64,000 bases of DNA from Candidatus Woesebacteria bacterium RIFCSPLOWO2_01_FULL_39_23 (GCA_001793095.1 MGHG01000004.1:7542-71541), one strand, 5' to 3'. Positions 4,883 through 49,414 are shown, counted from the first letter of the stretch. Notes: generated by a model from the letters alone, not told the origin. A program made the numbers and translations.

Positions 4883-5965
4883 ATGAATGAACGTGAATAC
4901 TTAATTGCACTTGCCTCTTTTATGTCATTTGGTCCGGCAAGGATAAAGCTGATGCTTTCCTATTTCGGTTCGGCGAAAAAAACCTGGGATGTACAAAAAG
5001 AAGATCTATTGGAAATTGGTCTTAAAGAGCAAAGTGTTAATGATTTTATAAAATACCGAGAAGGTATCGAATTGCCGAAATATTTTAATGACTTAAAAAG
5101 ACACTCAATAGGATGTATCACAATAAATGATCATGAATATCCCCAGAATTTACGAGGCTTGGGAGACGCTCCTTTAGTTCTATATCTACGAGGAAGACTA
5201 ATTAGTTCCGATATCAACTCTGTCGCAATTGTCGGGAGTCGAAAAATGACTTCATACGGAAGAGAAGTTACCGAGAGGCTGTCCCGGGAACTTGCGAGTT
5301 TGGGTATAACGGTTGTTTCTGGCCTTGCTTTCGGAATAGATATTACAGCGCATAGAAGTGCACTAGAAGCCGATGGAAGATGTGTTGCCGTCTTAGCTTC
5401 AGGAATAGACATTATTACACCCAGATCGAATGAGTGGCTGGGTCTTGAAATAATTAAAAAGGGTGGAGCGATTATCTCTGAATATCCGCCGGGAGTAATT
5501 CCTCAGAAATACTTCTTTCCCTATAGAAATAGGATAATTTCCGGTTTGTCGAAAGCTGTAATTGTTGTTGAAGGCATGATAAAAAGCGGTACAATTCATA
5601 CCGCGAAGCACGCAGCTGATCAGGGGCGTCAAGTATTTGCCGTACCCGGACAGATTACCTCACCAATGAGCGGTGCGCCCCACTATTTAATAAAAAATGG
5701 TGCAAGAATGTTAACAGACGTAAAAGATATCTTGGATGAGCTGGACATGCAATTAAAAGTTGATAAGGATATAGTCGAGCGGGTTATGCCATCTGATATT
5801 TATGAAGAGAAATTGATTGAGGTTTTGGCAAATGAACCGTTATACATTGACGAGATTGGTAGAATATCAGGGTTGACGGTTTCAACTATTTCAAGCAAAC
5901 TTACTGTCATGGAATTAAAAGGGATGGTTAAAAACATTGGCGGAGGAATATACAGAAAATGCTAA
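4883..5965 (+). CDS. dprA: DNA processing protein A (DprA/Smf)
   Basis: GSRKMTSYGREVTERLSRELASLGITVVSGLAFGIDITAHRSAL is the Rossmann-like DprA core; C-terminal winged-helix-like tail. Confidence 0.85.
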   Translation: MNEREYLIALASFMSFGPARIKLMLSYFGSAKKTWDVQKEDLLEIGLKEQSVNDFIKYREGIELPKYFNDLKRHSIGCITINDHEYPQNLRGLGDAPLVLYLRGRLISSDINSVAIVGSRKMTSYGREVTERLSRELASLGITVVSGLAFGIDITAHRSALEADGRCVAVLASGIDIITPRSNEWLGLEIIKKGGAIISEYPPGVIPQKYFFPYRNRIISGLSKAVIVVEGMIKSGTIHTAKHAADQGRQVFAVPGQITSPMSGAPHYLIKNGARMLTDVKDILDELDMQLKVDKDIVERVMPSDIYEEKLIEVLANEPLYIDEIGRISGLTVSTISSKLTVMELKGMVKNIGGGIYRKC

Positions 5966-21593: not shown

Positions 21594-21878
21594 GTGCAGT
21601 ACTACGTATATATTTTGGGTAATAATAGACCTACTTTATATGTTGGAGTAACCTCAAGTCTAGCTAAGCGAATTTATCAACATAGAAATAATTTAATTAA
21701 AGGATTTACATCCAAGTATTTGATACATAAGCTTCTTTACTATGAAGTAGTCAATAATCCACAAAGTGCATTGGGAAGGGAAAAACAATTGAAAAATTGG
21801 CATAGAGAGTGGAAGTTAAATTTGATAAAATTAAAGAATCCAGAATTTAAAGATTTATATTCGGAAATTCTGAAATAG
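21594..21878 (+). CDS. GIY-YIG nuclease family protein
   Basis: YYVYILGNNRPTLYVGVTSSLAKRIYQH. Confidence 0.7.
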   Translation: MQYYVYILGNNRPTLYVGVTSSLAKRIYQHRNNLIKGFTSKYLIHKLLYYEVVNNPQSALGREKQLKNWHREWKLNLIKLKNPEFKDLYSEILK

Positions 21879-21935
21879 ATCCTGAAATAAACCTGTCCTG
21901 ACGACAGGTCAGGATTCAGGATGACAAAATAATAT

Positions 21936-23180
21936 ATGAAACAATCTACGTTATTTCCAAAGACCAGAAAAGAAGCTCCGAAAGACGCCGAAAGTATTAA
22001 CCACAAGCTTTTGGTCCGCGCAGGCTTCATTGATCAGTTGATGGCCGGTTCATGGACGTTATTACCTCTGGGCTGGCGGGTGGTAACGAAGATAAATCAA
22101 ATTATACGGGAAGAAATGAATGCCATCGGAGGTCAGGAAATGCTTATGCCCCTTTTGCACCCCAAAGAAATCTGGAAGGAAACGGGGAGATGGGATAAAG
22201 CAGAGGAAATTTTATACAAACTTAAAGACACTAGAGATAAAGAATACGCTCTCTCATTTACGCATGAAGAAATTGTTATGGATCTACTGCGTAAGAATAT
22301 AACTAGCTACCAGGATTTACCTGTTTACGTTTACCACTTTTCAACAAAATTCAGAAATGAACCAAGAGCCAGATCTGGAATTTTAAGAGGCAGGGAATTT
22401 ATGATGAAAGACCTCTACAGCGCGCACACCAGTGAAGAAGATTTAATGAAATATTATGAAATTGTAATGGGTGCGTATTCAAAAGTATTTAATCGTCTTG
22501 GTTTTAACTTCAGAATAACAGAAGCTGCGGGAGGTGTTTTTACTGATAAATATACTCATGAATTTCAGGTTCTTTCGGATACGGGAGAAGATGAGATATT
22601 GTACTGCGATTCCTGCGATTGGAGTCAAAATAAAGAAATATTCTCGGGTGACAGGGGTAACCCCTGTCAAAAATGCGGAAAGGGTAAAATTATCCAAGCA
22701 AAGTCAATTGAGGTGGGAAATATTTTTCCGTTGGGGAAATGGTACGCTGAAAAAATGGGAGTCAACTTTACCGGCGAGGACGGAAGCAAAAAGCCTGTTT
22801 GGTTCGGAAGTTACGGCATCGGTCCAACTAGAGTTTTGGGTACGCTGGTGGAGGTAAATCACGACGATAAGGGTATTATTTGGAAGAAAGAAGTTGCTCC
22901 CTTTGATGTACACCTGCTAGATATCAGAACAAGGGATAAAGCGCAGAGCGCAAAGAAAATCGATGACAGTTTACAAAACGAGGGAATTGAAGTTTTATGG
23001 GACGATAGGGATGTTTCCGCCGGAGAGAAGTTTGCCGAGGCTGACCTAATTGGTATTCCGGTGAGATTAGTAATTTCCGAAAAAACAGGAGATAAAATTG
23101 AATGGAAGGAGAGAATTAGCGATAAAGCTGAATTATTGACACTGGATGAGATAATTAGTAAATTGCACAATGGAGATTAA
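21936..23180 (+). CDS. proS: proline--tRNA ligase (bacterial type without INS editing domain; contains CxxC..CxxC zinc-ribbon insertion)
   Basis: HKLLVRAGFIDQLMAGSWTLLPLGWRVVTKINQIIREEMNAIGGQEMLMPLLHPKEIWKETGRW (class II motifs); only 414 aa, so no INS domain; insertion YCDSCDW...GDRGNPCQKCGKG. Confidence 0.85.
   Translation: MKQSTLFPKTRKEAPKDAESINHKLLVRAGFIDQLMAGSWTLLPLGWRVVTKINQIIREEMNAIGGQEMLMPLLHPKEIWKETGRWDKAEEILYKLKDTRDKEYALSFTHEEIVMDLLRKNITSYQDLPVYVYHFSTKFRNEPRARSGILRGREFMMKDLYSAHTSEEDLMKYYEIVMGAYSKVFNRLGFNFRITEAAGGVFTDKYTHEFQVLSDTGEDEILYCDSCDWSQNKEIFSGDRGNPCQKCGKGKIIQAKSIEVGNIFPLGKWYAEKMGVNFTGEDGSKKPVWFGSYGIGPTRVLGTLVEVNHDDKGIIWKKEVAPFDVHLLDIRTRDKAQSAKKIDDSLQNEGIEVLWDDRDVSAGEKFAEADLIGIPVRLVISEKTGDKIEWKERISDKAELLTLDEIISKLHNGD
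22650..22668. repeat. 19-nt perfect palindrome GACAGGGGTAACCCCTGTC, copy 1 (inside proS, encodes DRGNPC)
   Basis: Read directly; identical copy at 46671-46689. Confidence 0.9.
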
Positions 23181-23464
23181 AAGCGAAAAATTATTTGGAA
23201 TACCTATTAAGTACCGGGTGTTTTTCAATGAAAGTGATACTTCAGTAATTAAAGAAAAAGGTTATCATTATTATCCTGGATTTCATACCAATCCTGATGG
23301 TACGAGTGAGGTTAGATATCCAATAATAAGTGTACGAGGGCATCTTTTTGCTAGAGTAATAATCCCTCTTGTTTTGGGTCAGTGATGAGCTAACGGTAGT
23401 TCTTGTCTATTACAATCCAGATAAACTAGCTAAAGTATTTATACCTCTTCTTTGAAGCTGTTTT

Positions 23465-23490
23465 GCTCTATTGCTATATAGCAATAGAGC
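23465..23490. promoter_or_regulatory. 26-nt perfect palindrome GCTCTATTGCTAT|ATAGCAATAGAGC (operator or hairpin)
   Basis: Read directly in the proS-HIT intergenic region. Confidence 0.4.
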
Positions 23491-23588
23491 AAGTTACATA
23501 GTAGGGTATTTTGCAGCAGATGTTAATTGGTGTACCCTAAAATTCATCTTGCCCGACATTCTTTAAGTGGCTATACTCAAGGCAATAT

Positions 23589-24065
23589 ATGGAAGACTGC
23601 ATTTTCTGCAAAATCGTAAAAGGCCAAAGTCTAAGTTATAAAATACTTGAGGATAAAAAACACGTCGCTTTTTTAAGCCTTTACCCAAACACACCCGGCT
23701 TTACCGTAGTCGCTACTAAGAAACATAAGCCCAGTTATGCATTTGAAAACGACGATAAAACGGTAACAGATTTAGTGCTATTTACGAAAAAAGTAGCGAA
23801 GCTTCTAGATGCCTCGTTTGAGGGTGTTGGGAGGTGCGGTATGTTTTTTGAAGGATTCGGTATTGACCATTTGCACTCCAAACTATTTCCAATGCATGGT
23901 ACGGCTGATATGGAAAGGTGGAAACCTATCGAGAGTAATATTGATGTTTTTTTCGAAAAATATCCGGGTTATTTATCATCGCACGCTTCGAAGCGAGAAG
24001 ATGATAAAGAGTTAGAAAGAATTAAAGTTAAAATTCTAGAAACAGCAAAGAAGTTAAATTTATGA
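23589..24065 (+). CDS. HIT (histidine triad) family protein
   Basis: CIFCKIVKGQ N-terminus; histidine-rich IDHLHSKLFPMHG. Confidence 0.65.
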   Translation: MEDCIFCKIVKGQSLSYKILEDKKHVAFLSLYPNTPGFTVVATKKHKPSYAFENDDKTVTDLVLFTKKVAKLLDASFEGVGRCGMFFEGFGIDHLHSKLFPMHGTADMERWKPIESNIDVFFEKYPGYLSSHASKREDDKELERIKVKILETAKKLNL

Positions 24066-45834: not shown

Positions 45835-46569
45835 ATGTCGAATGAACAAAAAGAATGGTGGACTATAAGGTTACCAATCGGTAAAAAGGAAAAAAATCCA
45901 CAACCACATATTGGTGGATTTAAAATGAAAGAAACGATCTTCCTTCCGCCTTCTAACTTTTTAGATAATTTATCAAGTTATTTTCATGAAGCAGGTCGTA
46001 TTATCGGAGAGACAATGTCATTTAGCGATGGGTCTGTACTTTTACCTGATGAAGCTAAGATCGCTAAGCTGCCTCTTAATTTTCAAGAACGTTTACGAAT
46101 ACTTAAACACATAGTAGGTAAACAGGATAAAGCAATGGATTCGTTTGAAGAAAGTGTCGCCAGTAAGATATTGCATTTATATACCAAAGGCAATTATCCC
46201 TTGGATAGAATTAAGTTAATAAATTTAAATCACGTTCAGTTTCAAAAATTTTTAGAACATTTAGCTAAAGATCAGGAACCAAACGATGTTTATGAAGTAG
46301 ACAAACAAGGCAATTTGTTCCCTAAATCTACAGATCGAGGTTTTTTAATTGAATTACCAGCTTACGCGGTAGAAATTGCTGGTATGACAATACTCTCAAA
46401 TAGTTTTTCCTCGGCTGATTTTAAATTCAAAGTTATTGAAGGTAAAACAGAAGGCTCGCACGATCGGGCTTTGAGCGAGGTATTAGTGGCTTATAAAGAA
46501 ACAGGAAGAATTTTACCGTCAGCCTTGGATTATCAACGATTTACCGAACACCATCAAATACATAGATAA
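45835..46569 (+). CDS. hypothetical protein
   Basis: 244-aa ORF. Confidence 0.35.
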   Translation: MSNEQKEWWTIRLPIGKKEKNPQPHIGGFKMKETIFLPPSNFLDNLSSYFHEAGRIIGETMSFSDGSVLLPDEAKIAKLPLNFQERLRILKHIVGKQDKAMDSFEESVASKILHLYTKGNYPLDRIKLINLNHVQFQKFLEHLAKDQEPNDVYEVDKQGNLFPKSTDRGFLIELPAYAVEIAGMTILSNSFSSADFKFKVIEGKTEGSHDRALSEVLVAYKETGRILPSALDYQRFTEHHQIHR

Positions 46570-46670
46570 GGTAAAGAATTAAGTTTTTACGGAGGCGGAT
46601 TCAGAAAAGTTAAAAAAGAATTTGCCTTTCGCTAATGTAAGCGGGTATACTGCATCAATAATTTACCTTT

Positions 46671-46689
46671 GACAGGGGTAACCCCTGTC
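46671..46689. repeat. 19-nt perfect palindrome GACAGGGGTAACCCCTGTC, copy 2 (intergenic, terminator-like context)
   Basis: Read directly; followed by acatatttt; 100 nt downstream of the preceding gene. Confidence 0.9.
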
Positions 46690-46815
46690 ACATATTTTCG
46701 CGTGAAACAGAAATTATATTCCATCTGCAGAAGTAAATAAATTTACAGCTTCATTTTATTTTTCACTTCACTGCTTGGGGAAGAAAAAAGATAGTAATTT
46801 AGATTTAAATACCTC

Positions 46816-46844
46816 TTGACACTGACTATATAGTCAGTAATAAT
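46816..46844 (+). promoter_or_regulatory. candidate sigma70-type promoter (TTGACA...TAATAAT) with an embedded 18-bp perfect palindrome ACTGACTATATAGTCAGT (46821-46838), putative LexA operator
   Basis: Read directly; ATG of lexA at 46851, suggesting a near-leaderless transcript. Confidence 0.45.
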
Positions 46845-46850
46845 TGGTTT

Positions 46851-47468
46851 ATGTCAAGTCTCAACGTTCTAACTAAAAGACAGGAGCAGGTATTGAAATT
46901 TATTTATACATCCATTAAGAGTTCCGGGTACCCTCCCACGCTTGCGGATTTAAGAGAAGAACTGGATGTGTCTTCAAACCAAGCTGTATTAGATTTTTTA
47001 AAAATTCTAGAAAATAAGAAACTTATAAAAAAGGAAGAAGGTGCTGCAAGAGGATTGAAAATATTAAAAAAAGGTTTTGAAGTTTTAGGAGTAAAAACTT
47101 TGATTCCATCGCTGGGAATTGTAGCAGCGGGACCTTTCAAATATTCGATGGAGGATCTTGAATGGAAAGAATTTGGAGATGCAAAAATAACCGATGATAT
47201 CTTCTTGGCAAAAATTAGTGGAGATTCGATGATTGGTGCAGGACTTGCGGATGGCGATCATGTAATAATACAAAAATCTCAAGAATTTAGAAATGGAGAG
47301 ATAGTGTTGGCTCGAGATAATAATGAAATGACTATCAAAACATTAGTGAGTGATAATGGTCGCTCATATTTAAAACCTGAGAACCCAAAATACAAAAATA
47401 TCCCAATCTACCCTGAAACTAGACTTATAGGAAAGGTAATTGGTAAAATTGGCGGGAAGAGAAAATAG
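46851..47468 (+). CDS. lexA: LexA repressor (S24 peptidase)
   Basis: N-terminal wHTH YPPTLADLREELDVSSNQAVLDFLKILENKKLIKK; cleavage-site region GIVAAGPF (Ala-Gly); Ser in GDSM and Lys in EMTIKTL. Confidence 0.8.
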   Translation: MSSLNVLTKRQEQVLKFIYTSIKSSGYPPTLADLREELDVSSNQAVLDFLKILENKKLIKKEEGAARGLKILKKGFEVLGVKTLIPSLGIVAAGPFKYSMEDLEWKEFGDAKITDDIFLAKISGDSMIGAGLADGDHVIIQKSQEFRNGEIVLARDNNEMTIKTLVSDNGRSYLKPENPKYKNIPIYPETRLIGKVIGKIGGKRK

Positions 47469-47470
47469 AT

Positions 47471-49414
47471 ATGGACAAGAGTGTAACTTCATATACAATC
47501 AATAAAATATTTAAGGACCCCAATTTGCAATTCGGACTCACAGAATTTGAAACGATTAAACCTTCAGAAGCGTTAGATATTTTTGAAAAGGAAAAGGGTA
47601 AATATTATCTTAAATGTTTAAAAAGAAACACAGATTTATTGGTTTGGAATGAAGAGAAGCGAGTGGGTGAACCCGAAGAAATAATCAGACAGCTTTGGTT
47701 ATATAAGTTAACCAAGTATTATAATTATCCCCTCGATAGAATTGCTGTTGAAAAAGAAGTGAATTTCGGCCGTGAAGTTCACGAAAAAGCCGCAGACATA
47801 ATCGTTTTTGATAAAGATAAGGAAACACCTGATATAGTTTTAGAAATAAAAAGCCCAGAAGCAAAAGATGGTTTGGAGCAAGTGAAAAGTTACCTTAATG
47901 CGGAAGGCGCATCTATCGGAGTATTAACGAACGGAATAATCAAAGTAATATTATATAGGCCATACCCCCATCAATTTGAAAATACACTTCGCGATATTCC
48001 AAGAATAGGCCAGACGATCGAAGATGTTCAGGAGGCTAAACTTACATTAGACCAACTTGAAAGAAAATACGATCTGGTAGCCATAATAAAAATTCTGGAA
48101 GAACTTGTCTTAGCGGGCGCGGGCGTAGACTCTTTTAATGAAATTTTCAAATTAATTTATGCAAAACTTTACGATGAAAAATATGCGAGAGATAGACACG
48201 GAGAACTTCTTTTCAGACAATCTTCCGAGGCCAGAATTACTTATGATAATATCGAGCGTCTATTTGAAAAGGCAACACAAGAATGGCCCGGAATGTTCAT
48301 CTCCGGTGAAAAAATTCTACTTTCACCTACTCATCTTTCTGTCTGCGTTGGAAATTTGGAAAAAATTAAACTTCTTGATGCGGAGTTAACAATAATAGAT
48401 AGAGCTTTTGAGTATTTACTTCCCGACGTTGCTAAAGGAAAGAGAGGCCAGTATTTTACTCCCAGACACGTTATTGATATGGCTGTAAAAATGCTTAATC
48501 CCAAAGAGGAAGAATATGTAATTGATCCCGCTTCAGGCTCAGGCGGGTTTTTAATTCATACTATGCAATGGGTGTGGGATAAACATATGTCTGAAAAATC
48601 ACACGAAACACAAATCGATTATGCAAAAACTCACGTTTACGGAATAGATTTTGATGATAAACCGGTTAAAATTTCGCGTGCATTAATGCTTATTGCCGGA
48701 GACGGTAAATCCCACATTTTTAAACTTAATTCCTTAAATCCCAAAGAGTGGATGGGAGAGGAGGGAGAAAAAGAAAAAGCAAGAGCGGAGCTTAGAGAAA
48801 GGCTGTATAAATTTAATGATTATGATAGGGACAGAGATAACGAAGAAAATTTCAGGAGTTTTGCATTCGACATGCTTTTAACCAATCCTCCATTTGCAGG
48901 CGAGATTATAGACCGTACGATTTTAAATATTTACGAACTGGCTAAAAACGACAAAGGAAAGTTAAGAAATAAAATGGAACGGCACATCTTGTTTATTGAA
49001 CGAGCGCTAAATTTGATAAAACCCGGAGGAAGATTAGCAATTGTTTTACCCCAGGGAGTTTTAAATAACACTAATATGGAATATATAAGAAACTGGCTTT
49101 TTAATAAAGCTAGAATTCTAGCTGTCGTAGGTTTGCATGTTAATACTTTTAAACCCCACACAGGAACTAAAACGTCGGTATTATTTTTGCAGAAGTGGAT
49201 AGAAAAAGAAGAACCACCCAAAGATTACTCCATATTTATGGCAGTTTCCAAAAAAAGTGGTAAAGACAAGAGTGGTGATTATGTATTTGTAAAAGACGAA
49301 AGTGGTCAATTTGCACTTGATGCAAAAGGAAATTTAAAAATTGACCACGACCTTGACGAAATCGCAAATAAGTTTATTGATTTCGCAAAGAAAGAAAGCT
49401 TCAATTTTTGGTGA
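47471..49414 (+). CDS. restriction-modification fusion protein: N-terminal PD-(D/E)xK nuclease-like domain plus gamma-class N6-adenine DNA methyltransferase (BcgI-A-like / Type IIB-IIG-like)
   Basis: N-terminal ADIIVFDKDKETPDIVLEIKSPE (D...EIK); MTase motif I VIDPASGSGGFL and motif IV LLTNPPFAG; starts 2 nt after the lexA stop. Confidence 0.7.
   Translation: MDKSVTSYTINKIFKDPNLQFGLTEFETIKPSEALDIFEKEKGKYYLKCLKRNTDLLVWNEEKRVGEPEEIIRQLWLYKLTKYYNYPLDRIAVEKEVNFGREVHEKAADIIVFDKDKETPDIVLEIKSPEAKDGLEQVKSYLNAEGASIGVLTNGIIKVILYRPYPHQFENTLRDIPRIGQTIEDVQEAKLTLDQLERKYDLVAIIKILEELVLAGAGVDSFNEIFKLIYAKLYDEKYARDRHGELLFRQSSEARITYDNIERLFEKATQEWPGMFISGEKILLSPTHLSVCVGNLEKIKLLDAELTIIDRAFEYLLPDVAKGKRGQYFTPRHVIDMAVKMLNPKEEEYVIDPASGSGGFLIHTMQWVWDKHMSEKSHETQIDYAKTHVYGIDFDDKPVKISRALMLIAGDGKSHIFKLNSLNPKEWMGEEGEKEKARAELRERLYKFNDYDRDRDNEENFRSFAFDMLLTNPPFAGEIIDRTILNIYELAKNDKGKLRNKMERHILFIERALNLIKPGGRLAIVLPQGVLNNTNMEYIRNWLFNKARILAVVGLHVNTFKPHTGTKTSVLFLQKWIEKEEPPKDYSIFMAVSKKSGKDKSGDYVFVKDESGQFALDAKGNLKIDHDLDEIANKFIDFAKKESFNFW

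What the first reader, a model, noticed from the sequence alone, without database searches (positions are those of the whole stretch)
22650..22668. Identical 19-nt perfect palindrome (GACAGGGGTAACCCCTGTC) inside the proS reading frame and in the intergenic region upstream of lexA
Seen: exact 19-mer at 22650-22668, in frame within proS where it encodes D-R-G-N-P-C in a CxxC...CxxC zinc-ribbon insertion, and again at 46671-46689, intergenic, with terminator-like downstream context. A 19-mer recurring by chance in 64 kb is essentially impossible. One possibility is a small mobile palindromic element whose in-frame insertion contributed the Zn-ribbon cysteine to ProRS. Another is a functional DNA site, for example a recognition or target site for the adjacent RM system or a DNA uptake/recombination signal, tolerated in coding sequence. 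The proS product itself is an unusually short ProRS (414 aa, no INS editing domain).
Basis: seen in the sequence. Interest (0 to 1): 0.55.

Follow-up and report, generated by a model that had tools for sequence, protein, structure and literature searches.

The report
Transposase-linked hairpin repeat written into genes
The repeated 19-mer is a copy of a small hairpin-forming repeat that, in these tiny-genome (Woesebacteria) bacteria, travels with a domesticated hairpin-binding transposase gene, and it has replaced, without changing the length, a few codons of the essential prolyl-tRNA synthetase gene.

Summary
The shared sequence is really a 21-mer, TGACAGGGGTAACCCCTGTCA (9-bp arms, 3-nt loop), present in the window only at 22649-22669 (proS) and 46670-46690 (upstream of lexA).

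It is not a one-off. The same 19-mer core occurs 12 times in another Woesebacteria genome, with unrelated flanks. There it sits just before, inside and just after a Y1/HUH transposase gene of the REP-associated (RAYT) type.

The window's own genome has the orthologous gene outside the window, carrying a variant hairpin at the same three places. Seven such loci keep the three-position pattern in whole or in part, and their hairpins covary. The predicted fold best matches the E. coli RAYT-REP complex.

So this is a REP/RAYT-like system in candidate phyla radiation bacteria.

The ProRS zinc-ribbon cysteines are invariant in 23 aligned homologues, and the loop length is unchanged in almost all of 120. 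The hairpin replaced about 13 of 21 bases in place.

Two other enzymes with coding copies, glutamate dehydrogenase and acetyl-CoA synthetase, show the same length-neutral replacement. That behaviour, and the copy inside the transposase gene, are the unusual parts. The mechanism is unknown.

The parts
22649..22669 (.). Hairpin repeat copy 1 (TGACAGGGGTAACCCCTGTCA), inside proS. Read in frame as (G)-D-R-G-N-P-C-(Q).
   Evidence: The 80%-identical orthologue (L002) keeps both 8-nt arms exactly, with loop TGA. Hairpin-less orthologues match only 7-8 of 21 nt at this site.
46670..46690 (.). Hairpin repeat copy 2, intergenic singlet between a 244-aa hypothetical gene and lexA.
   Evidence: Flagged as terminator-like (9-bp stem, tail CATATTTTCG) and as promoter-like (TTGACA-16-CATATT). 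Flanks are unrelated to those of copy 1.
21936..23180 (+). proS (ProRS, 414 aa, class II core plus anticodon-binding domain, no INS domain). Host gene of copy 1.
   Evidence: 100% identical to a protein of Candidatus Woesebacteria bacterium RIFCSPLOWO2_01_FULL_39_23.
22605..22676 (+). CxxC...CxxC zinc-ribbon segment of ProRS (C224 to C247). It is ancestral, and its variable inter-knuckle loop carries the hairpin.
   Evidence: Cysteines invariant in 23 aligned homologues. Pattern found in 116 of 120 homologues, with the same loop length in almost all.
45835..46569 (+). Hypothetical 244-aa gene upstream of copy 2 (no Pfam family).
46816..46844 (+). lexA's own promoter-like site (TTGACA-17-AATAAT, 11 of 12) with the palindrome CTGACTATATAGTCAG in its spacer. 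It is distinct from the hairpin repeat.
46851..47468 (+). lexA (LexA_DNA_bind plus Peptidase_S24), the gene downstream of copy 2.

Best explanation
The 21-mer is a member of a family of 21-nt hairpin repeats with the form TGACA-RGG-N5-CCY-TGTCA. In Microgenomates (candidate phyla radiation bacteria) this family is tied to a conserved Y1/HUH 'IS200-like' transposase gene of the REP-associated (RAYT) kind.

Each genome has its own hairpin variant. In most loci examined that variant sits about 35 nt upstream of the RAYT start codon, in frame inside the RAYT gene just after the catalytic-tyrosine motif YIHLNP, and just after the stop codon. Further copies are scattered through the genome, between genes and inside genes.

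By analogy with E. coli RAYT and IS608 TnpA, the enzyme is inferred to bind the hairpin as single-stranded DNA and to be responsible for its spread and homogenisation. This step is inferred, not shown.

The two window copies are dispersed members of this family. The proS copy is an old, length-neutral replacement of about 13 of 21 bases in the variable loop between the two ancestral zinc knuckles of ProRS. It is shared with an 80%-identical orthologue and is tolerated, not a source of the zinc site.

The copy upstream of lexA is an intergenic singlet. It may incidentally act as a weak terminator for the upstream gene or supply a TTGACA -35 box. Neither role is shown.
For: 1. Dispersed repeat. 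A genome-collection scan found the 19-mer (loop TNA) 12 times in one Woesebacteria MAG (JAFGPD01), with T...A flanks and otherwise unrelated context. The 8 hits in other, mostly high-GC, genomes look like the number expected by chance.
2. In that MAG, three copies bracket and sit inside a 227-aa ORF. The ORF matches Pfam Y1_Tnp (E 1.9e-10, above the cut-off) and NCBIfam 'REP-associated tyrosine transposase' (E 4e-11, below the cut-off).
3. The window's own genome encodes the orthologue P0142 (locus tag A3A76_00025, against A3A76_05875 for ProRS). It is not in the window. Hairpins TGACAGGG-N5-CCCTGTCA lie at -35, +475 and +705.
4. Seven orthologous loci have an upstream hairpin at -32 to -36. 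Six have an in-frame internal copy at +467 to +475, and six have a copy just after the stop. Within a locus the copies are identical or nearly so. Between loci they differ by compensatory changes. On 12 distinct hairpins, pair 6-16 is GC 8 times and AT 3 times. Pair 9-13 is TA, GC or CG. No shuffle out of 500 reached the observed pairing.
5. The same covariation shows up in protein. In 120 homologues the internal peptide is LTGxxPV (52) or LTRxxLV (32), against mixed types 14 and 4. Fisher p = 3e-11, not corrected for phylogeny.
6. Two paralogues in the same MAG carry different cognate palindromes.
7. The HUH histidines and the tyrosine are invariant. The AlphaFold model of P0142 (pLDDT 77) best matches 4er8, the E. 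coli RAYT bound to a REP hairpin (E 3.7e-6), then the IS608, ISDra2 and IS200 TnpA structures.
8. A gene for a TPR protein precedes the RAYT gene in L018, L021, L051 and L053. This fits a vertically inherited, single-locus gene.
9. Precedent exists for REPs inside genes, including tRNA synthetase genes (PMC3733652), and for RAYT groups with only about 12-14 linked repeats per replicon (PMC5581495).
Against: - The hairpins at the window genome's own RAYT locus have different central bases (TCTGA, ACGGA) from the two window copies (GTAAC), although the outer 8-bp arms are identical. A cognate relation within this genome is therefore not proven. The window copies could be relics or belong to an unseen paralogue.
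- Only 2 copies lie in 64 kb, and the whole genome could not be counted.
- No conserved GTAG or CGTC tag of canonical REPs is present.
- Coding copies are length-neutral replacements. No known Y1 transposase mechanism produces this.
- No transposition, binding or cleavage was or could be tested.
- Symmetric covariation would also be expected for a double-stranded palindromic operator bound by a dimer.
Confidence: 0.8

Rival explanations
1. The palindrome is a double-stranded operator or promoter element. A dimeric regulator (possibly the domesticated RAYT itself) binds TGACA-N11-TGTCA, whose left arm doubles as a TTGACA -35 box, and controls a small regulon that includes the RAYT gene and perhaps lexA.
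For: - TTGACA with a -10-like hexamer 16-18 nt downstream occurs at the window copy and at L018 positions 1793 and 2520.
- The upstream hairpin lies at a fixed -32 to -36 from the RAYT start in seven loci.
- Several intergenic copies lie 30-40 nt upstream of start codons.
- Symmetric covariation fits a dimer site as well as a hairpin.
Against: - About 40% of copies are inside ORFs of unrelated enzymes (ProRS, GDH, Acs, DinB-like, amino-acid kinase).
- Some lie between convergent genes.
- Copies are identical over 21 of 21 nt, unlike the degenerate sites of a regulon.
- Many copies lack any -10 hexamer at the right spacing.
- The linked protein has the fold of a single-stranded-DNA hairpin-binding HUH enzyme.
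Confidence: 0.1
2. The hairpins are host RNA-level elements (terminators or mRNA-stabilising stem-loops) that recur because selection favours this stem. They would be unrelated to the transposase.
For: - Several copies lie 5-29 nt after stop codons or between convergent genes.
- The window copy at 46670 passes a terminator-like scan.
- G-L combinations (a G-T wobble) outnumber R-P (an A-C mismatch) by 14 to 4 in the RAYT-internal copy, which hints at pairing in RNA.
Against: - Most copies lack a T-run.
- Copies inside essential ORFs would terminate them.
- Exact 21-nt identity at unrelated sites, and the fixed three-position arrangement around the RAYT gene with genome-specific variants, are not expected from independent selection for a stem.
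Confidence: 0.06
3. The site is a recognition or target site of the neighbouring restriction-modification enzyme, or a DNA-uptake signal.
For: - The centre GGTAACC fits GGTNACC-type sites.
- A 647-aa N6-methylase fusion follows lexA.
Against: - Only two copies lie in 64 kb.
- The centre differs between genomes and even within the window's own genome, while the arms are constant.
- Copies in the other MAG are not next to restriction-modification genes.
- Uptake signals occur hundreds to thousands of times per genome.
Confidence: 0.02
4. The two window copies are a coincidence of coding constraints and chance.
For: - The conserved G, G and C codons of the ProRS loop supply about 7 of the 21 bases.
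- One unrelated transposase motif, GDRGYPCQP, also spells the 19-mer (L026, L037, L045).
Against: - No shuffle out of 100 gave a match.
- The nearest hairpin-less orthologues match only 7-8 of 21 nt.
- The same 21-mer recurs at 12 or more sites in a relative, around its RAYT gene.
Confidence: 0.01

Closest known systems
REP / REPIN elements with their RAYT (TnpA-REP) genes, as in E. coli, Pseudomonas and Stenotrophomonas (PMC2817692, PMC3116915, PMC5581495; structure 4er8)
   Same: - Short GC-rich hairpin repeats dispersed with unrelated flanks.
- Repeats immediately flank a Y1/HUH transposase gene that sits at a conserved chromosomal place.
- Each paralogue or genome has its own cognate hairpin.
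- The predicted fold is closest to 4er8.
- The low copy number resembles RAYT Groups 1 and 4, with about 12-14 linked 16-mers per replicon.
   Different: - No GTAG or CGTC tag.
- A perfect 9+3+9 hairpin rather than an imperfect palindrome.
- Mostly singlets rather than doublets.
- A conserved in-frame copy inside the RAYT gene itself.
- About 40% of copies lie in ORFs.
- Coding copies replace 21 nt without changing the length.
- The host is a candidate phyla radiation lineage, for which the papers searched report no REP/RAYT system.
- The NCBIfam RAYT equivalog score is below its cut-off.
Intragenic REPs (Di Nocera et al. 2013, PMC3733652) and Rickettsia palindromic elements (RPE)
   Same: Palindromic repeats found in frame inside functional genes, including tRNA synthetase and DNA-repair genes.
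   Different: Those are described as insertions that add 20-80 residues. Here ProRS, GDH and Acs keep exactly the length of their homologues.
IS200/IS605 TnpA (IS608, ISDra2)
   Same: HUH and Tyr catalytic motifs and the same fold. That family recognises sub-terminal DNA hairpins on single-stranded DNA.
   Different: - The gene is not part of a multi-copy element with distinct left and right ends.
- The same symmetric hairpin lies on both sides and inside.
- The protein is about 90 residues longer.
- The paralogues in one genome are less than 50% identical.

Membership tests
REP (repetitive extragenic palindrome) | Short (20-40 nt) GC-rich palindrome able to form a hairpin | tested here: met
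   21 nt, 9-bp arms, 3-nt loop. DNA fold -9.3 to -9.5 kcal/mol, z about -4.
REP (repetitive extragenic palindrome) | Many dispersed copies per genome with unrelated flanks | tested here: inconclusive
   12 exact copies, plus one variant, in the fetched parts of MAG JAFGPD01. Only 2 in the 64-kb window and 3 variants at the RAYT locus of the window's genome. The whole genome was not available. Far below the >100 copies of classic REPs.
REP (repetitive extragenic palindrome) | Conserved GTAG or CGTC tetranucleotide at the foot of the hairpin | tested here: not met
   Only T (5') and A (3') are conserved next to the 19-mer. No GTAG or CGTC is present.
REP (repetitive extragenic palindrome) | Extragenic location | tested here: not met
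   5-6 of 14 copies (window plus JAFGPD01) lie inside ORFs, in three reading frames. More coding copies appear in metagenome contigs.
REP (repetitive extragenic palindrome) | Copies flank a RAYT gene (a 'REPtron') | tested here: met
   L018, L021, L027 and L051-L054, and two paralogues with their own palindromes.
REPIN (doublet of inverted REPs) | Two REPs in inverted orientation forming a larger hairpin as the replicating unit | tested here: inconclusive
   Window copies and most JAFGPD01 copies are singlets. Doublet-like arrangements occur in L053 (792 and 836) and in L027 and other contigs of GC 0.45-0.48.
RAYT (TnpA-REP, Y1 HUH transposase) | Y1_Tnp domain with the HUH motif and catalytic tyrosine | tested here: met
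   Pfam PF01797 at E 1.9e-10, 41 bits against a cut-off of 23. H89, H91 and Y149 are invariant in 40 homologues.
RAYT (TnpA-REP, Y1 HUH transposase) | NCBIfam NF047646 equivalog score | tested here: not met
   42.9 bits against a cut-off of 80. It is a distant clade.
RAYT (TnpA-REP, Y1 HUH transposase) | Fold of the E. coli RAYT | tested here: met
   Best Foldseek PDB hit is 4er8_A: E 3.7e-6, TM-score 0.68 normalised by target length. The model has pLDDT 77.
RAYT (TnpA-REP, Y1 HUH transposase) | Housekeeping-like distribution: no recent duplicates, conserved locus | tested here: inconclusive
   The three paralogues in JAFGPD01 are only 39-50% identical. A TPR gene lies upstream in 4 of 7 loci. 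No whole-genome counts were possible.
RAYT (TnpA-REP, Y1 HUH transposase) | Binds and cleaves its cognate REP as single-stranded DNA | not testable with these tools
   Needs biochemistry.
Rickettsia-type palindromic element (RPE) or intragenic REP insertion | In-frame insertion that adds residues relative to homologues | tested here: not met
   No gap in ProRS, GDH against 1euz and 1gtm, or Acs against 9g79.
Intrinsic terminator | GC-rich stem followed by a T-run | tested here: inconclusive
   The window copy at 46670 passes the scan. Most other copies have no T-run, and several are inside ORFs.
DNA uptake sequence / restriction-modification target | High genome-wide density / invariant recognition core | tested here: not met
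   2 copies per 64 kb. The central bases vary between and within genomes.

The most novel reading that the evidence does not exclude
In candidate phyla radiation bacteria, a RAYT-type HUH enzyme and its 21-nt hairpin may form a system that does not insert. Instead it would overwrite 21-nt stretches of existing DNA in register, a templated 'cassette' replacement. Copies could then colonise loops of essential, gene-dense coding sequence (ProRS, GDH, Acs and the RAYT gene itself) without frameshift or length change. The copy kept inside the RAYT ORF would serve as the master template or as an autoregulatory site. This would be a mode of sequence propagation not described for any transposase.
Probability: 0.2. 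Interest if true: 0.8.

Novelty: new variant of a known kind. Interest (0 to 1): 0.6.

Why it matters
REP/RAYT systems are known mainly from Proteobacteria, where the repeats sit between genes. Here a related system appears in ultra-small, gene-dense candidate phyla radiation genomes.

Three things set it apart:
- The hairpin is perfectly symmetric and low in copy number.
- It is embedded in frame in the transposase gene itself.
- It is written into conserved enzymes by replacing 21 bases rather than adding them.

If the replacement is enzyme-driven, it points to an undescribed reaction of HUH/Y1 enzymes, exchange of a short single-stranded DNA cassette. It would also be a way for selfish or domesticated repeats to survive where there is almost no intergenic DNA.

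For annotation, it explains odd lineage-specific peptides (DRGNPC, LTGVTPV, GQGLPLS) in otherwise conserved proteins.

Tried and rejected
- Rfam and tRNA scans of the window found nothing.
- Extended similarity around the two copies: none beyond 21 nt.
- A RAYT gene in the window: none found by tblastn.
- Direct sequence search of P0142 against the PDB gave no hit. A profile search gave only a weak ISDra2 TnpA match (E 0.05) and a spurious DpnII methylase match. Fold search was needed.
- Viral contigs held no copy of the 19-mer, so there is no sign of a phage link.
- LexA homologues: the nearest full-length one is only 68% identical. A presence/absence comparison of the lexA-upstream copy in close relatives was therefore not possible.
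- The metagenome scan did not recover the window's own organism, so the genome-wide copy number in this organism remains unknown.
- Terminator reading: rejected as a general role for lack of T-runs and because of coding copies.
- Restriction-modification or uptake-signal reading: rejected on copy number and the variable centre.
- Zinc-ribbon-by-insertion reading: rejected by the alignments.
- One set of metagenome hits (L026, L037, L045) is probably not a repeat copy. It looks like the natural GDxGYP motif of a DDE transposase that happens to spell the 19-mer.

Full report
**Observation**

The 19-mer GACAGGGGTAACCCCTGTC occurs exactly at 22650-22668 and 46671-46689. No dinucleotide-preserving shuffle out of 100 gave any match, even with 3 mismatches allowed. 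Reading the sequence shows the identity is 21 nt, TGACAGGGGTAACCCCTGTCA, made of 9-bp arms and a 3-nt loop. It is therefore an inverted repeat around TAA, not a strictly perfect palindrome.

Nothing else in the window fits GACAGGG-N5-CCCTGTC with up to 2 mismatches, or TGACA-N11-TGTCA. Flanks of the two copies are unrelated.

Copy 1 lies in proS (21936-23180) and reads D-R-G-N-P-C between two CxxC knuckles. Copy 2 lies 100 nt after a 244-aa ORF and 160 nt before lexA.

**Source organism and ProRS**

ProRS is 100% identical to a protein of Candidatus Woesebacteria bacterium RIFCSPLOWO2_01_FULL_39_23. The 120 best homologues are all 404-422 aa, so the 'short' ProRS is normal for the lineage.

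In 23 aligned homologues the four cysteines (C224, C227, C244, C247) are invariant. A scan of all 120 found the CxxC...CxxC pattern in 116, with the same loop length in almost all, typically G-K-x-G-D/E-x-C-P-K-C. The window has G-D-R-G-N-P-C-Q-K-C. Four residues are changed exactly under the 21-mer, including the usually conserved Pro after the Cys, and there is no gap. So the zinc ribbon is ancestral and nothing was inserted.

The nearest orthologue (P0002, 80% aa) carries GACAGGGGTGACCCCTGTC. Both arms are intact and the loop has A changed to G (N to D). The genes are 72% identical in DNA, and only 43% of conserved degenerate codons are identical. All five arm codons are identical, which has a probability of about 0.02 from residue-specific rates.

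The next orthologues, which lack the hairpin (L055, L056), match only 8 and 7 of the 21 bases at this site.

**A repeat family**

A scan of 185,579 species genomes for GACAGGGGTNACCCCTGTC gave 17 loci. Nine of them, holding 11 sites and 12 copies in all, are from one Woesebacteria MAG (JAFGPD01). The rest are single hits in other, mostly high-GC, genomes, about the number expected by chance.

In the MAG the copies have T...A flanks, either TAA or TTA at the centre, and no other shared context. They lie:
- between pheS and pheT;
- in divergent and convergent intergenic gaps;
- inside genes for glutamate dehydrogenase, a DinB-like polymerase and an amino-acid-kinase-family protein.

A metagenome scan added 27 loci, mostly low-GC contigs with the same T...A flanks. 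Viral contigs had none.

**Link to a transposase**

Three MAG copies lie 35 nt before, inside (+467) and 9 nt after a 227-aa ORF. That ORF matches Pfam Y1_Tnp (E 1.9e-10) and NCBIfam 'REP-associated tyrosine transposase' (E 4e-11, below the cut-off).

Two paralogues in the same MAG (39-50% identical) are flanked by different palindromes, ACAAGGGT-TGA-ACCCTTGT and ATCAAGGTT-CSG-AACCTTGAT.

The window's own genome encodes the orthologue P0142 (A3A76_00025, 60% identical). It lies on another contig, not in the window. Hairpins TGACAGGG-TCTGA-CCCTGTCA and TGACAGGG-ACGGA-CCCTGTCA sit at -35, +475 and +705.

Across seven orthologous loci (L018, L021, L027, L051-L054):
- All seven have an upstream hairpin at -32 to -36.
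- Six have an internal copy at +467 to +475. L027 has none.
- Six have a copy just after the stop. In L052 the downstream copy has a mismatch and overlaps the stop codon.
- Within a locus the copies are identical or nearly so. L021 and L052 differ in the central bases.
- Between loci the copies differ by compensatory changes (GACAGGG/CCCTGTC against GACAAGG/CCTTGTC).

On 12 distinct hairpins, 95% of cells pair. Pair 6-16 is GC 8 times and AT 3 times. Pair 9-13 is TA, GC or CG. No shuffle out of 500 reached this.

The internal copy encodes L-T-G-x-x-P-V or L-T-R-x-x-L-V. In 120 homologues the counts are G..P 52, R..L 32, G..L 14 and R..P 4. Fisher p = 3e-11, not corrected for phylogeny.

Homologues without the internal hairpin have an ordinary ...EILTKEQILVD... 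at the same place.

H89, H91 (the HUH motif) and Y149 are invariant. An AlphaFold model of P0142 (pLDDT 77, pTM 0.79) best matches 4er8, the E. coli RAYT bound to a REP hairpin (E 3.7e-6). The IS608, ISDra2 and IS200 transposases follow.

A TPR-protein gene precedes the transposase gene in four loci, which suggests vertical inheritance at a fixed locus.

**Coding copies are replacements, not insertions**

- ProRS: see above.
- GDH (L010)...EFDSA-LTGVTPV-KTSVAVQGFGNVG aligns without a gap to ...REAAKA-LGIDLKG-KKIAVQGYGNAG of 1euz.
- Acetyl-CoA synthetase (L028, L029, L042)...IID-DRGNPCQ-VGQTGNLAIK aligns without a gap to ...IVD-NQGNELP-PYRMGNLAIK of 9g79. The orthologues differ only by the central base, giving N or Y.

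This differs from the reported intragenic REPs and Rickettsia RPEs, which add residues (PMC3733652).

**Interpretation**

The best-supported reading is a REP/RAYT-like system in Microgenomates, with the window's two 21-mers as dispersed members.

Shown:
- the repeat family;
- its three-position association with the Y1 gene;
- genome-specific covariation;
- the RAYT-like fold;
- length-neutral coding copies.

Inferred from the family's known mechanism (4er8, IS608): the enzyme recognises the hairpin on single-stranded DNA and drives its spread and homogenisation.

Not explained:
- how 13 or more of 21 bases are replaced in register;
- why the window copies carry GTAAC at the centre while this genome's RAYT locus carries TCTGA and ACGGA.

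The lexA-upstream copy scores both as a terminator (tail CATATTTTCG) and as a promoter (TTGACA-16-CATATT). lexA has its own stronger promoter at 46816-46844, so any regulatory role of the hairpin is speculative.

**Literature**

Searches found REP/RAYT work in Proteobacteria and others. That work covers low-copy RAYT groups (PMC5581495) and intragenic REPs (PMC3733652). Nothing linked REP or RAYT to candidate phyla radiation bacteria. No report of a copy inside the RAYT ORF turned up in the passages read. That is absence in the library searched, not proof of novelty.

**Verdict**

This is a real feature. It is a new variant of a known kind (REP/RAYT). Two aspects are unusual: length-neutral writing into conserved genes, and a covarying copy inside the transposase gene. 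Interest 0.6.

Noticed in passing
window 23463-23492: A 30-bp perfect palindrome (TTGCTCTATTGCTAT|ATAGCAATAGAGCAA, no spacer). It lies in the roughly 200-nt gap upstream of the HIT-family gene at 23589. It is the longest perfect inverted repeat in the window and may be an operator.
   Followed up: no
window 21891-21914: Two overlapping 7-bp hairpins (ACCTGTC-CTGAC-GACAGGT and TCCTGAC-GACAG-GTCAGGA) lie between a small GIY-YIG gene and the proS start. They contain CCTGTC and GACAGG, the arm cores of the repeat, in inside-out order. A similar inside-out hairpin lies upstream of a RAYT paralogue at L005, around 5150-5230.
   Followed up: partly
window 46816-46844: lexA promoter-like site TTGACA-17-AATAAT with the 16-nt palindrome CTGACTATATAGTCAG filling the spacer. 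This is a candidate LexA box for this lineage. No second copy exists in the window.
   Followed up: partly
window 46851-49414: lexA is followed after 2 nt by a 647-aa protein with HSDR_N_2, N6_Mtase and Eco57I-type methylase domains. A LexA gene apparently co-transcribed with a fused restriction-modification-type enzyme is an unusual pairing.
   Followed up: no
L018 1828-2511, L005 4516-5148 (-), L004 1232-1867: One Woesebacteria MAG (JAFGPD01) carries three RAYT-like paralogues (39-50% identical), each with its own cognate 9+3+9 palindrome. One of them (L004) has an internal copy at a different position, +204.
   Followed up: partly
L035 about 1700-1850: An ORF whose sequence (...TPVETPVETPVK-LTGVTPV-KTTPVTGVKMTGVEP...) seems built from tandem partial copies of the hairpin arms.
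   Followed up: no
L027, L031, L033, L036, L038, L046, L050 (contigs of GC 0.44-0.48): The 21-mer is fused to a second hairpin (GAGGGGTTACCCCT or ACAGGGGTTACCCCTC), giving doublets that can fold into a larger hairpin, like REPINs. In L038, L047 and L050 the doublet is read through as DRGYPCQGVTPRGG inside glycosyltransferase-like ORFs.
   Followed up: no
L013, L015, L020 (Caldilineaceae genomes): The same 19-mer is the core of a longer palindrome of about 31 nt (ACAGTA-GACAGGGGTTACCCCTGTC-TACTGT). It lies at what looks like one orthologous locus in three genomes. RAYT Group 4 is reported as common in Caldilineae (PMC5581495).
   Followed up: no
L026, L037, L045: A DDE-transposase-like ORF spells the 19-mer as its GDRGYPCQP motif. 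This is probably a coding coincidence rather than a repeat copy, and it is a caution for pattern-based counts.
   Followed up: no
window 21594-21878; L021 6872-7063 and 13515-13931: Small GIY-YIG nuclease-family genes sit next to proS in the window and twice near the RAYT locus of the same genome. Avd-like (bAvd / 23S_rRNA_IVP) genes are also near the RAYT locus. No link to the hairpins was tested.
   Followed up: no
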